Shown one piece after another: positions 51,385-60,331 of a DNA stretch of 64,000 bases; the stretch's first letter is position 1; each line of letters starts with the position of its first letter. The stretch is taken from the NCBI GenBank assembly GCA_951406725.2, contig OX597829.1, positions 36,394,001 to 36,458,000 of the forward strand. Reading direction: 5' to 3'. The notes beneath the pieces were generated by a model. The model was given only the letters and a program-made list of their open reading frames with translations. It had not been told where the DNA came from and did not search any database. Both the position numbers and the translations under genes were made by a program. The DNA is from Octopus vulgaris. Lineage: Eukaryota.

Positions 51385-51940
51385 ATGCCCAGATGCAGTA
51401 CCAGGCAGTGACTCTCGTGGCTTCTGATCTTAACTGATTGGAAGTGTTATCATGTACATTGTTTTGTCTAGACATAAATGATGGGCTACTGCAAATATTT
51501 TGCTGTATAACACAGATTTGCTTGTCAGTTGTTTGACCTTAACCAGTTGAGCAAGTCCCTTAGTGGCTGATGATATATGCATCTCTGATCACGAGCAGAA
51601 GTAGTGGGGGAGCATCATAGCCATGTGTTGAGAGGGATTCTTGGAGGTTTGGACAAATCACCTGTGGAAACATGGGTGGTTCGTTCAACATCCTTAAACA
51701 ACCCTTATTCAGGGACCTTTTCGGCGGAACATGTTACTCGACCAGAAGAAAATTCTAACTGGACCGCACCTGCAAGATCATGTGCTGTTTATCTTGATAT
51801 GAGATCACCATGTTGCGCACATATGGTTGTGATGCATGTATCTGGTGTACCCTTATCAGATGGTTAGTCATGATGAGTATACTGGGCTTCGTATATTTTA
51901 GCCCAGTGTCACTTTGATGGCATGCACTGCTCTCTCACTC
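51385..51940 (+). mobile_element. 555-bp TAA-associated element, full length
   Basis: ATGCCCAGATGCAGTACCAGGC...GCACTGCTCTCTCACTC with (TAA)n on both sides. Confidence 0.93.
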
Positions 51941-52096
51941 AATAATGACGATGATAATAATAATAATAATAATAATAATAATAATAATAATAATAATAAT
52001 AATAATAATAATAATAATAATAATAATAATAATAATAATAATAATAATAATAATAATAATAATAATAATAATAATAATAATAATAATAATAATAAT

Positions 52097-52714
52097 TTGT
52101 GGACAAAATGGTGAAACTGCATGGCATATTACCAGTCAATGTACGCCACTAACCCAGAAAGAATATAAGAGACGTCATGACGATTGCCCATTGGACACTT
52201 TGCAACAAGTATGGACTTGACAATGGTACGCACATAAACCCGAAGGCATCATCGAAAATGATGATGCAAAGATCCTATGGGATTTTATAATCCAGTGTGA
52301 CCATGAAATAGAGAATAGGAAACCAGACATAGTGTTAATTGAGAAAGAAAGCAAATGATGCTGCATCACAGATATAGCTTGCCCATGTGACAGTAAGGTA
52401 TGCGATAAGAAAGAAATAAAAGTCGATGGGTATAACAGGTTAGCTTCGGTGGTTAAGCAGTTGTGGTGCCTGAAAAAGGTGGTAGCAGTACCAATAAATG
52501 TCGGAGTCCTGGGAACAATAAGTAAAATCTTGAGAAGTATATGGAACAAATAGGGGTTGCAATAAGAGTGGAACACTTGGAGAAAACGAGAAAACAGCAC
52601 TACTTGGAACCGTTCGAAAACTCCGGATGGTGCTAGAAAAATAAGGGGTGTTCGCTGGTAGTGAACAGCTGGCACCGTAGTACATCTCCAATGTTAGAAG
52701 CTGGGCAAAGACAA
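52097..52714 (+). pseudogene. R4/Dong 3' fragment (CCHC + RLE) with (TAG)n tail
   Basis: CGQNGETAWHITSQCTPLTQKEYKRRHD; WYAHKPEGIIENDDAKILWDFIIQCDHEIENRKPDIVLI; starts directly after (TAA)n. Confidence 0.85.
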
Positions 52715-52789
52715 TAAGTAGTAGTAGTAGTAGTAGTAGTAGTAGTAGTAGTAGTAGTAGTAGTAGTAGTAGTAGTAGTAACTTTTAAT

Positions 52790-53115
52790 TATAAAGGCAT
52801 GAAAAACTTCTCAATGGCAAATACCCTAAGAGAGCTGCTAGCGTCGATGTTGACAAAGCTCTCACTCATCAATGGTTAGTGTCTTCTGGTTTAAAATGAG
52901 AAACAGAAGTGTTTACCATAGCAGCCCAAGATCAATGCCTACCTACAAGAAACTACCAGGCCATCATATTAAAGAACGGCAGTTACCCAACTATGTCAAC
53001 AACAAAATGAAACCATTGATCATATTGTCTCCATGTGCAGGAACTTGTGCCTTCAGAGTATCTCAACGGGCTGATAGAGCAGAACAATATATTCACAGGG
53101 TAATTTGCAAAAACC
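52790..53115 (+). pseudogene. Short R4/Dong internal fragment
   Basis: WQIP..., ETEVFTIAAQDQCLPTRNYQ and ETIDHIVS motifs preceding the zinc knuckle. Confidence 0.65.
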
Positions 53116-53250
53116 CTTACCCCTACACCACCCCTGCTACTGTTGCTGTTGCTACAACAACTGCTGCTACTACACATAAAAATAGTAATATTAGTGATAT
53201 CAGTGATGATGATGATGAGGAGGAGGAGGATGATGATGATGATGATGATG

Positions 53251-57900: not shown

Positions 57901-58940
57901 CAAAAGAGTAAAGTGTAGGGGCATAGAATTGCCAAACGGAGAGAGAATGGAAGGCCCGGATGATGACGGGCACAAGTACCTTGGGATCCTGGTGCTGGAC
58001 AATATTTTTGCATAAAGAAATGAACGAGGAGTTCATCACTGCATATTTCAAGCGCCTCAAACTTCTCTTGAAATCAAACCTCAACTGAAGGAACCTTGTG
58101 ACTGCCATCAACATATGGGTGATTACTCTAGTCCGCTATAGTGCACCCATCCTGAAATGGATACAAGCAAAGATTAACCAACTGGATCGCACTACCCGAA
58201 AGACAATGACAATGTATGGTGCCCTCCACCCTAAGGCTCTACATGAAGAGGGTAAAACTTGACGTGGATTGATTAGCGTATGGGAGTGTAAGAAGAAACA
58301 TGGTGAGTATTTGATAAACAGCAAACAAGACCAGCTACATTATGCTGCTAATGCAGAAAGATTTAACAAGAATGGACTTGAGACCGATTAAGAACAGCCA
58401 ACGAGAGAGAAGAAACCCTACTCCGCGTGGATTTATATTGTCAGTTCCACCGTGAAATCAACAAATTAAAAGGGCCGGAAACATCATGGAGGTGGCTTCA
58501 CAAGGGCGACCTAAAAAAGAATACTAAAAGCCGGACATAGTAACATTTAAGAGGGAGAAACAAGGGTGCCTAATAATCGATGTTGCAGTTCCATGAGATC
58601 AATATATTATGATGAAAGAAAGAGAAAAGGCTGATAAATATGGAGACCTGAGAATTGAGATCGCTTAGATGTGGCAGCTGCGAGAGTCAAACATAAAGGT
58701 TATCCCTTTATCATCGGAGCATTGGATTCTATACCACCAAATCTGAGAAAAAAAAAAACATCTGAAAACCTTAGAAATACCCTACAACCTAGGTGTATTG
58801 CAAAAGACGGCATTATTTGGAACTGCACGCATATTGTGTAAAGTACTGTCTTATTGTGACTTGACAAACAGTACAAACCCCCGGTAGACACAATATCTTC
58901 AATCAATAACCTCACGATATTGCATACTGAGCGAAGTCTA
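57901..58940 (+). pseudogene. 3' part of a different R4/Dong family, internally deleted, (TAA)n tail
   Basis: GIELPNGE..HKYLGIL, QLDRTTRKTMTMYGALHPK, GRGLIS, PDIV, IIDVAVP, KYGDLRIEI, VIPFIIGALD, LQKTALFGTA. Confidence 0.85.
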
Positions 58941-59110
58941 TAATAATAATAATAATAATAATAATAATATAATAATAATAATAATAATAATAATAATAAT
59001 AATAATAATAATAATAATAATAATAATAATAATAATAATAATAATAATAATAATAATAATAATGATGATGATGATGATGATGATAATAATAATAACAACA
59101 AAAACAATAA

Positions 59111-59666
59111 ATGCCCAGATGCAGTACCAGGCAGTGGCTCACGTGACTTCTGATCTTAACTCATTGGAAGTGTTATCATGTACATTGTTTTGTCTTGGTA
59201 TAAAAGATGGGCTACAGCAAATATTCTGCTCAATACCACAGATTTGCTTGTCAGTTGTTTGACTTTAACCAGTTGAGCATGTCCCTAAGTGGCTGACGAT
59301 ATGTGCATCTCTGATCACGAGCAGAAGTAGTGGGGGAGCATCATAGCTATGTGTTGAGAGGGATTCTTTGGGGTTTGAATAATTCACCTCTGGAAACATG
59401 AGTGGTTCTTTCAACATCCTTAAACAACCCTTATTCAGGGACCTTTTGAGCGGGATGGGCTACTCAACCTGAAGAAAATTCTAACTGGGCCCCACCTGCA
59501 AGGTCATGTGCTGTTTATCTTGATATGAGATCACCATGTCGCGCACATATGGTTGTGATGCATGTGCCTGGTGTACCTTTATCAGACGGGTAGTCATGAT
59601 GGGTATATTGGGCTTCGTATATTTTACCCCAGTGTCACTTTGATGGCATGAACTGCTCTCTCACTC
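59111..59666 (+). mobile_element. 555-bp TAA-associated element, full length
   Basis: Same termini as 51385-51940; (TAA)/(TGA) repeats on both sides. Confidence 0.93.
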
Positions 59667-59785
59667 AATAATAATAATAATAATAATAATAATAATGATG
59701 ATGATGATGATAATGATGATGATGATGATGATGATGATGATGATGATGATGATGATGATGATAATAATAACAACAAAAACAATAA

Positions 59786-60331
59786 ATGCCCACATGCAGT
59801 ACCAGGCAGTGGCTCACGTGGCTTCTGATTTTAACTTATTGGAAGTGTTATCATGTATATTGGTATAAAAGATGGGATACAGCAAATATTCTGCTCAATA
59901 CCACATATTTGCTTGTCAGTTGTTTGACCTTCACCAGTTGAGCATGTCTTTTAATGGCTGACGATATATGCATCTCTGATCATAAGCAGAAGTAGTGGGG
60001 GAGCATCATAGCCATGTGTTGAGAGGGATTCTTTATGGTTTGGATAATTCACCCTTGAAAACAAGGATGTTTCGTTCAGCATCCTTAAACAACCCTTATT
60101 CAGGGACTTTTTGAGCGGGATAGGTTACTCGACCGGAAGAAAATCCTAACTGGGCCCCACCTGCAAGGTCATGTGCTGCTTATCTTAATATGAGATCACT
60201 ATGTTGCGCACATATGGTTGTGATGCATGTGCCTAGTGTACCCATATCAGACGGATAATCATTATGGTTATATTGGGCTTCGTATATTTTAGCCCAGTGT
60301 CACTTTGATGCCATGCACTGCTCTCTCACTC
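59786..60331 (+). mobile_element. 555-bp TAA-associated element, full length, head-to-tail with the previous copy
   Basis: Same termini; small internal deletion; followed by (AAT)n. Confidence 0.93.

What the first reader, a model, noticed from the sequence alone, without database searches (positions are those of the whole stretch)
51385..60331. Discrete ~555-bp non-coding retroelement targeted to (TAA)n, with no tRNA head
Seen: five copies (30103-30545, 50938-51280 minus, 51385-51940, 59111-59666, 59786-60331). Three start at the same base (ATGCCC), two are 5'-truncated, and all end CTCTCTCACTC followed by (AAT)n, with TAA repeats on both sides in a fixed orientation. I see no A/B boxes, TIRs or conserved ORF. 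A fixed 3' end with variable 5' truncation indicates target-primed reverse transcription. Inference: a non-autonomous, microsatellite-specific parasite of an R4/Dong enzyme. Its 3' end matches none of the R4 tails here, so the partner is unidentified.
Basis: partly seen in the sequence, partly recalled or inferred. Interest (0 to 1): 0.72.

Follow-up and report, generated by a model that had tools for sequence, protein, structure and literature searches.

The report
Non-coding hitchhiker of Dong retrotransposons
A 556-base non-coding repeat, present in about ten thousand or more copies in what is likely an octopus genome, sits in TAA repeats in one fixed direction and likely spreads by borrowing the enzyme of Dong retrotransposons, although no sequence shared with them was found and almost a third of it matches a small DNA transposon.

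Summary
Observation confirmed. The five copies belong to a discrete 556-nt element: 9,656 exact 3' ends genome-wide, 8,111 followed by AAT(A/G)AT. About half of 100 consecutive copies start within 10 nt of ATGCCC; the rest are 5'-shortened. Its junction phase and 5' tandem duplications match those of intact Dong/R4 families in the same arrays, so Dong-driven target-primed reverse transcription is likely (0.8).

No partner shares its sequence: no match to four young full-length Dong families, and 0 of 82 examined tails follow a Dong ORF end. Dong tails share a covarying hairpin; the element has a look-alike, but a stricter model scores it below held-out Dong families (9.6 against 10.9-17.5 bits), so mimicry is only suggested. 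'No tRNA head' is not proven: there is no B box and there are internal T4 runs, but a faint tRNA-Arg likeness scores like a control SINE.

The scan noted this element (e1-10333100) and the Dong hairpin (e1-9809270) before on other DNA. Verdict: new variant of a known kind, closest to Entamoeba EhSINE1.

The parts
59111..59666 (+). Full-length copy of the 556-nt element, young subfamily (98-99% to its best matches elsewhere)
51385..51940 (+). Full-length older copy (about 92% to young copies)
59786..60331 (+). Full-length older copy with a 10-nt deletion
50938..51280 (-). 5'-truncated copy (starts near element position 190), 22-nt internal deletion
30103..30545 (+). Old 5'-truncated copy (about 82% to young copies), 15-nt deletion
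59111..59214 (+). 5' head, element positions 1-104: predicted long irregular hairpin, no B box, faint tRNA-Arg(TCT) likeness, origin not found
   Evidence: (z -2.07 on copy L007)
59213..59381 (+). Segment shared with the inside of a 490-bp Chapaev3-like MITE (element positions 103-271; 163 of 169 identical, copy L007 against the MITE majority)
59566..59613 (+). Tail hairpin (positions 456-503): 13-bp outer stem, 2-nt bulge, 7-bp inner stem, GGGUA loop; resembles the Dong 3'-UTR hairpin
58940..59110 (+). (TAA)n target array upstream of the 59111 copy
59667..59785 (+). (AAT)n/(GAT)n array between two copies; ends in the same 23-nt signature as the array before 59111
60332..60776 (+). (AAT)n array downstream of the 59786 copy
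50764..50937 (-). (AAT)n array at the 3' end of the minus-strand copy
51281..51384 (.). Back-to-back TAT and AAT arrays upstream of the two divergently oriented copies
48718..50762 (+). Decayed Dong/R4 fragment, family A; tail hairpin at 50695-50737
52097..52716 (+). Decayed 3' fragment of Dong family F (assigned by eye from its tail)
53250..54979 (+). Decayed 5'-truncated Dong copy, family D
55104..57850 (+). Decayed 5' and middle part of Dong family F (right end approximate)
57900..58939 (+). Decayed 3' fragment of Dong family E (left end approximate)

Best explanation
This is a discrete 556-nt non-coding element that sits in (TAA)n arrays in one orientation and is likely copied there by the protein of Dong/R4 retrotransposons through target-primed reverse transcription. 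Shown: fixed 3' end, preferred 5' start, scattered 5' truncations, 5' tandem duplications, the same junction phase as Dong, copies differing by as little as 0.2%, and four young Dong families in the genome, three with open 1,235-1,344-aa frames. Inferred: a Dong protein binds the element's RNA in trans, nicks the TTA strand of the array and primes cDNA at the RNA's 3' end. Less sure (about 0.45): recognition is by shape, through the bulged pentaloop hairpin 55-100 nt from the 3' end, so no single family need share its sequence. Least sure (about 0.4): the RNA is not a Pol III product, and its exact 5' end is set by an internal Pol II start or by self-cleavage within the 104-nt head. The body is a mosaic that has exchanged 169 nt with a Chapaev3-like MITE; I lean slightly to capture by the MITE.
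For: Target and phase: the 3' end is followed by an AAT array in 61 of 68 element copies, 30 of 31 Dong A, 17 of 20 Dong C and 18 of 21 Dong D copies; genome-wide 8,111 of 9,656. End profile: of the first 100 exact tails on C1, 33 of 82 fetched start at position 10 or earlier and the other 18 have an exact head 458-547 nt upstream. 18 of 20 fetched heads run in one piece to the tail and none leads into a LINE. 5' duplications occur in 8 of 60 element heads and in Dong copies L061 and L208. The autonomous families that I could assign among sequences ending in sense (AAT)n arrays were all Dong. The Dong ORFs have RVT_1 and match R2 proteins. The Dong tail hairpin covaries (81.8% of cells paired, 13 of 15 pairs with double changes). 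Model R1, built from Dong only, ranks element hairpins 2nd and 3rd in the window and scores copies up to 16.6 bits. 4 of 4 recurring variants in the element's stem keep pairing. All 60 near-full copies have 2-5 T4 runs and the head has no exact B box. Dong elements target TAA microsatellites (PMC3812793, passages).
Against: No sequence link to any Dong: best BLAST E 6.6-8.2 against 24 copies of families A-D; the best tail alignment (family F, 2 of 300 shuffles) does not survive 72 comparisons. With families F, H and N left out (model R2) the element scores at most 9.6 bits (E 4.8), below held-out Dong tails at 10.9-17.5 bits; R1 partly held families that I picked after seeing the element's loop. 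The tail's folding z-score is only -1.0 to -1.3, no double-sided change is seen within the element's stem, and a transition keeps pairing at 44 of 76 paired tail positions anyway. Target-site duplications cannot be read in the arrays (4 informative of 79; shuffled pairings mean 1.1, max 4). 34 of 82 fetched copies lack a TAA-rich 5' flank. No RNA evidence was obtained. Only part of the Dong diversity was sampled (about 12 tail types here; an octopus annotation lists 51 Dong-R4 families, PMC13282606 supplement).
Confidence: 0.8

Rival explanations
1. It is a classic stringent SINE/LINE pair: the tail came from one Dong family (perhaps F-like) that is rare, extinct or unsampled, and recognition rests on inherited sequence rather than on mimicry. 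The enzyme and target are as in the best explanation; the origin of the tail differs.
For: The element's hairpin is most like family F's; F variants rank first or second for 3 of 4 element tails. R1, which includes F, scores it higher than R2. Shared 3' tails are the rule for SINE/LINE pairs (PMC3747384, passages and Table 1).
Against: 0 of 82 examined tails follow a Dong ORF end. No recurring loose end in the 3' half among the rows shown for 8 run layings (only the best-supported rows are displayed). The F copies seen are decayed while the element has copies 0.2% apart. F's 5' end differs from the head.
Confidence: 0.3
2. It is a degenerate tRNA-Arg-derived Pol III SINE with a long acquired body, related in origin to the octopus OR SINEs, that uses Dong for insertion.
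For: The head aligns best to host tRNA-Arg(TCT) in 3 of 3 copies (z 2.1-2.8; 6-19 of 500 shuffles), as strongly as the window's 230-nt control SINE does to its best tRNA (z 2.8). An A-box-like 12-mer stands at +25 in the 59786 copy. Rfam also misses the control SINE.
Against: There is no exact B box; the nearest one-mismatch candidate lies about 83-93 nt after the A-like site, inside the MITE-shared part. All 60 near-full copies carry 2-5 T4 runs; the control has none. A short tRNA-like SINE in the same genome scores z 10.5 in the same test. 16 tRNA types were tested, so z 2.8 is not significant.
Confidence: 0.15
3. It is moved by another LINE (RTE, CR1/L2, Tx1) that adds an (AAT)n tail, and it collects in TAA arrays passively or through a loose AT preference.
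For: Some APE-type LINEs end in TAA-type repeats (PMC3747384, passage). RTE, CR1 and Tx1 families are reported as recently active in an octopus (PMC13282606). Some truncated copies lack an upstream array.
Against: The upstream flank is TAA-phase in 46 of 59 complete heads, in one orientation, which a tail alone does not explain. The 5' duplications match Dong's. No non-Dong LINE was recognised among ends before sense AAT arrays.
Confidence: 0.08
4. It is a DNA-transposon derivative that moves like the MITE with which it shares 169 nt.
For: 96% identity over 169 nt to a TIR element.
Against: The shared part excludes both TIRs. The element has no TIRs and has 5'-polar truncations, whereas the MITE has TWA duplications and no TAA arrays.
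Confidence: 0.02

Closest known systems
Entamoeba EhSINE1/EhSINE2, EdSINE1 and R4-N1_ED (partners EhLINE1/2 and R4-1_ED; PMC2996970 passages, PMC3747384 Table 1)
   Same: About 500-600 bp, non-coding, no identified small-RNA precursor or canonical Pol III promoter, mobilised by an R4-type LINE (R4-1_ED is named in the table; the R4 placement of EhLINE1 is recalled).
   Different: EhSINE1 overlaps its LINE by about 70 bp and inserts at T-rich sites without a fixed target. This element shows no detectable sequence overlap, is tied to (TAA)n in one orientation, lives in an animal genome and shares a segment with a MITE.
Dong elements of the R4 clade (Bombyx Dong, DongAg, DongBg; 'Dong-R4' families of octopus; PMC3812793, PMC3774820, PMC13282606)
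   Same: TAA target, junction phase, 5' truncations and 5' duplications, and a similar tail hairpin.
   Different: No ORF and no shared sequence. Bombyx Dong has an HDV-like 5' ribozyme; none was recognised here, but my search had no positive control.
R2 SIDEs and R2/R1 hybrid SIDEs of Drosophila (PMC3414825, abstract and Discussion)
   Same: Short non-autonomous elements that use a site-specific non-LTR enzyme and have no Pol III head.
   Different: SIDEs are built from the 5' ribozyme and 3' UTR of their parents. Neither end of this element matches the Dong families examined, and SIDEs are rare whereas this has 10^4 copies or more.
tRNA-derived octopus SINEs (OR1 of the CORE-SINEs; OR2 and OK recalled; PMC4824008 passages)
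   Same: Short, abundant, non-coding retroposons in the same kind of genome.
   Different: Twice the length of the window's 230-nt tRNA-like SINE, no B box, internal T4 runs, and the opposite orientation to the TAA arrays.
Chapaev3 transposons (PMC4079192, passages)
   Same: The MITE that shares the middle segment has 3-bp TWA duplications set between A and T, as described for Chapaev3.
   Different: This applies to the MITE, not to the element; no transposase was linked to the MITE.

Membership tests
Non-autonomous non-LTR retroelement (SINE-like) | Fixed 3' end with a simple-repeat tail and variable 5' truncation | tested here: met
Non-autonomous non-LTR retroelement (SINE-like) | Discrete full-length unit, not the 3' UTR of a longer element | tested here: met
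   about 51 of 100 tails start within 10 nt of position 1; 0 of 82 follow a Dong ORF end; 18 of 20 heads reach the tail in one piece
Non-autonomous non-LTR retroelement (SINE-like) | No coding capacity, no LTRs or TIRs | tested here: met
Non-autonomous non-LTR retroelement (SINE-like) | Target-site duplication | tested here: inconclusive
   hidden by the arrays; 4 informative of 79, shuffled maximum 4
SINE in the strict sense (tRNA/5S/7SL head, Pol III) | Head homologous to a Pol III RNA | tested here: inconclusive
   Rfam and ARAGORN negative, but also for a control SINE; faint tRNA-Arg likeness
SINE in the strict sense (tRNA/5S/7SL head, Pol III) | A and B boxes at tRNA spacing, no internal T4 terminators | tested here: not met
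   no exact B box; 2-5 T4 runs in 60 of 60 near-full copies (box patterns recalled)
Dong/R4-dependent element | Oriented insertion in (TAA)n with Dong's junction phase | tested here: met
Dong/R4-dependent element | 3' sequence shared with a partner LINE | tested here: not met
   not all Dong families were sampled
Dong/R4-dependent element | Conserved Dong 3'-UTR hairpin | tested here: inconclusive
   R1 up to 16.6 bits; R2 at most 9.6 bits, below held-out Dong tails
Dong/R4-dependent element | Trans-mobilisation by a Dong protein | not testable with these tools
   needs a priming or retrotransposition assay
SIDE (internally deleted LINE derivative) | 5' and 3' ends identical to those of an autonomous element | tested here: not met
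   no match to the ends of families A-D or F
SIDE (internally deleted LINE derivative) | HDV-like 5' ribozyme | tested here: inconclusive
   no Rfam or descriptor hit, but none in five Dong 5' ends either
MITE / DNA transposon | Terminal inverted repeats and a 3-bp TWA duplication | tested here: not met
   met by the 490-bp MITE (18 of 25 end pairs identical, both orientations counted), not by the element

The most novel reading that the evidence does not exclude
An animal SINE-like element with no Pol III head and no LINE-derived tail, assembled from unrelated parts including DNA-transposon sequence, that parasitises several Dong/R4 families at once by imitating the shape of their shared 3' hairpin and cuts or starts its own exact 5' end through an unrecognised RNA element.
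Probability: 0.2. Interest if true: 0.78.

Novelty: new variant of a known kind. Interest (0 to 1): 0.5.

Why it matters
Known passengers of R4-type LINEs in the table I read are all from Entamoeba and share a tail with their LINE (PMC3747384). A very abundant, recently active passenger of Dong in an animal, with no shared sequence, offers a natural minimal template to test what an R4/Dong protein needs in its RNA. That bears on how strict template choice is in restriction-like-endonuclease retrotransposons, the group used for site-specific gene insertion (recalled). It also explains about 0.6% of this genome and why TAA arrays here are split by repeated flanks. If the partner turns out to be an ordinary tail-sharing Dong family, it is simply one more SINE/LINE pair.

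Tried and rejected
Rfam: nothing in the window at gathering scores and nothing relevant on the element at E up to 10; of low value, because the control SINE is also missed. Own-genome DNA search with the last 127 nt returned 0, likely because very common words are skipped. A resemblance of the element's middle to a Dong C-terminus, seen by eye, was not backed by the BLAST comparison and the stretch proved MITE-shared. A tRNA-Leu origin of the head: four Leu types score z 1.0 or less; Leu(TAA) was not among them. Likenesses to U1, U7 and U12 seen by eye have no Rfam support. HDV descriptor: 0 hits in the element and in five Dong 5' ends, so uninformative; Rfam found no ribozyme in five Dong loci. 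A 46-codon frame across the MITE junction has no Pfam or atlas hit and no long ORF among 150 best genome hits. No sister MITE lacking the shared segment was evident among 30 loci found with the left arm. Two copies with the same non-TAA junction (L352, L358) share a long non-coding flank, a segmental duplication. A loose end seen only in run X5 contains what I recall as a Hi-C ligation junction. TSD search uninformative. Literature searches listed no paper whose title or abstract start describes this element or a Dong-dependent SINE; Repbase, Dfam and the Zenodo library of PMC13282606 could not be consulted, so it may already be catalogued as an unclassified SINE or unknown repeat.
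Full report
Observation. Three begin at ATGCCC, two are 5'-truncated, and all end CTCTCTCACTC followed by AAT. The window lies in a 2.8-Gb genome whose size, roughly 30 large contigs and repeat content suggest an octopus; that is my inference.

Abundance and age. A DNA search gave 3,440 first-look candidates, the best 40 at 97-100%. Exact patterns give whole counts: 9,656 3' ends (reversed control 0), 8,111 of them followed by AATRAT; 8,167 heads, 3,951 preceded by TAATAA. 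In 60 evenly spaced 10-kb stretches there were 14 alignments in 9 stretches, 0.63% of bases. Dropping one MITE hit and joining split hits leaves 11 copies, which I scale to about 50,000 copies (Poisson range about 26,000-92,000). Among 82 tail-complete copies, a set biased to young ones by the searches, nearest neighbours differ by 0.2% upwards and distances to the majority run to 15%. Fourteen runs from seven studies, under five organism labels, hold 89-100% of the sampled words.

Ends and target. The 3' end is followed by an AAT array in 61 of 68 fetched copies. 46 of 59 5' flanks and 55 of 68 3' flanks are TAA-phase, against 2 and 0 in the opposite orientation and 0.27% of background. Of the first 100 exact tails on C1, I fetched 82: 33 start at position 10 or earlier and 49 start between 11 and 540; 48 of 82 have a TAA-rich 5' flank. 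The other 18 have an exact head 458-547 nt upstream. Of 20 fetched heads without an exact tail, 18 run to the tail in one piece, one has an internal deletion and one breaks off. Eight of 60 complete heads carry a duplicated 5' piece. This is the profile of target-primed reverse transcription of an RNA with a defined 5' end. Target duplications cannot be read in the arrays.

The likely enzyme. The same arrays hold many Dong/R4 copies. Families A, B and C have open frames of 1,344, 1,235 and 1,313-1,319 aa; D is young, but no full-length open frame was seen. The proteins have RVT_1 and match R2 retrotransposon structures. Dong A, C and D end on AAT in the same phase (30 of 31, 17 of 20, 18 of 21), and L061 and L208 show the same kind of 5' duplication. 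Dong elements are described as TAA-targeting (PMC3812793, passages; that review lists them with APE-type elements, whereas the proteins here match R2). An octopus annotation lists 5 recently active Dong-R4 families and 51 in all (PMC13282606, parts 1-2 of 3 and the supplement).

No sequence partner. BLAST against 24 copies of families A-D gave nothing better than E 6.6. Against 18 tail sequences the best alignment was to family F (2 of 300 shuffles, old copy), not significant over 72 tests. F's 5' end differs from the head, and a profile search of the loci then in hand found nothing outside element and MITE copies. None of 82 tails follows a Dong ORF end; the Dong pieces found upstream of 9 of them lie at scattered ORF positions or beyond an array. 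Contig layings showed no recurring loose end in the 3' half among the displayed rows. Not all Dong families were sampled.

Tail hairpin. Eleven Dong tails align without gaps on a bulged hairpin with a 5-nt loop: 81.8% of cells paired, 13 of 15 pairs with double changes, slid controls 27-50%. The element folds a similar hairpin at 456-503. Model R1 ranks two element copies 2nd and 3rd in the window (12.6 and 10.9 bits, E 0.74 and 2.2) and scores others up to 16.6 bits; a Dong D tail, which was not in training, scores 15.1. Because I chose three training families after seeing the element's loop, I rebuilt the model without them. R2 scores held-out D, E, F and H tails at 10.9-17.5 bits, lists no hit for N, and scores the element at 9.6 at best. 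Four of 4 recurring variants in the stem keep pairing, none double-sided, and 44 of 76 paired tail positions would tolerate a transition anyway. So the likeness is suggestive and not shown.

Mosaic body. Contig layings showed strong loose ends at positions about 106 and 271 in all four runs. They lead to a 490-bp element with long imperfect TIRs and TWA duplications (18 of 25 end pairs identical, both orientations counted), as described for Chapaev3 (PMC4079192, passages). Element positions 103-271 match its inside at 163 of 169, ending just before the right TIR. MITE copies lie a median 8.9% from their majority in this segment. The two oldest element copies lie 12.5-13.3% from theirs and carry 5 and 4 of the 5 element-type diagnostic bases. 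That leans to capture by the MITE, but the MITE copies were chosen as best hits and no parent or sister was found, so the direction is open.

Head and transcription. Rfam and ARAGORN find nothing but also miss the window's tRNA-like 230-nt SINE. Against 16 host tRNA types the head's best match is Arg(TCT) at z 2.1-2.8, equal to that control and far below a short tRNA-like repeat at z 10.5. There is no exact B box, and all 60 near-full copies have 2-5 T4 runs, which argues against Pol III (established knowledge of Pol III termination). Bombyx Dong self-cleaves at its 5' junction (PMC3774820, passages); my ribozyme searches were negative for the element and for Dong alike. No usable RNA run was found.

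Comparison and verdict. It works like EhSINE1 (PMC2996970, passages) and the R2 SIDEs (PMC3414825, abstract and Discussion): a short passenger of a site-preferring non-LTR enzyme. It fails the strict SINE test (promoter) and the SIDE test (parental ends). In the SINE/LINE table of PMC3747384 the R4-named partners are all from Entamoeba. PMC9115989 and PMC4824008 were seen as passages only. Ten paper searches listed no description of this element; Repbase, Dfam and the Zenodo library were not available. The scan had noted the same kind of element on other DNA (e1-10333100) and the Dong hairpin (e1-9809270); both were read after my own analysis and are not independent support. Verdict: real, a new variant of a known kind, interest 0.5.

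Noticed in passing
L161-L190, L211-L240, L110: A 490-bp MITE with about 120-bp imperfect TIRs beginning CACTGTGTAAC and TAA/TTA duplications (Chapaev3-like); 7,151 first-look candidates; best copies 7-10% from the majority, none young among those seen.
   Followed up: yes
L061-L069, L191-L210; window 50695-50737: At least four young Dong families (A-D) and about eight older tail types; most carry a covarying bulged hairpin with a 5-nt loop in the 3' UTR.
   Followed up: yes
L017 (about 40 repeats of 29 nt), L208, G000 C1:30148154-30149001: 5' tandem duplications can grow into minisatellite-like arrays, in both the element and Dong D.
   Followed up: partly
window 58940-59110 and 59667-59785: The arrays before the 59111 and 59786 copies end in the same (GAT)n plus 23-nt signature, although the copies are only about 89% alike: a long target duplication or a local duplication.
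   Followed up: partly
window 17475-17706, 18769-18994, 23289-23520, 29806-29976, 36862-37084, 43562-43750, 45870-46107, 47181-47412: A 230-nt tRNA-like SINE, often next to ATT-phase repeats in its own sense, that is, opposite to Dong and the element.
   Followed up: partly
L009 near 1140-1222, L133 near 5615-5694, L106: A short tRNA-like repeat of about 80 nt (z 10.5 to tRNA-Arg(TCT)) that ends directly in (AAT)n; a possible second TAA-associated passenger.
   Followed up: partly
L199 and L193/L196, first 120 nt of Dong C and B: The two families share a short GC-rich 5' motif, and Dong C has a stretch that looks by eye like the 3' part of an HDV-like ribozyme; not detected by Rfam or my descriptor.
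   Followed up: partly
G000 C14:40810791-40863521: A cluster of about 40 matches to a tRNA-Leu D-arm motif within 53 kb, likely a tRNA gene array.
   Followed up: no
window 13849-14378, 22445-22705, 35166-35634, 63058-63519: Another dispersed repeat family of about 500 bp with an internal (TA)n or (CA)n tract.
   Followed up: no
window 38219-38837 and 39154-39521: A local inverted duplication of about 340 bp (89% alike).
   Followed up: no
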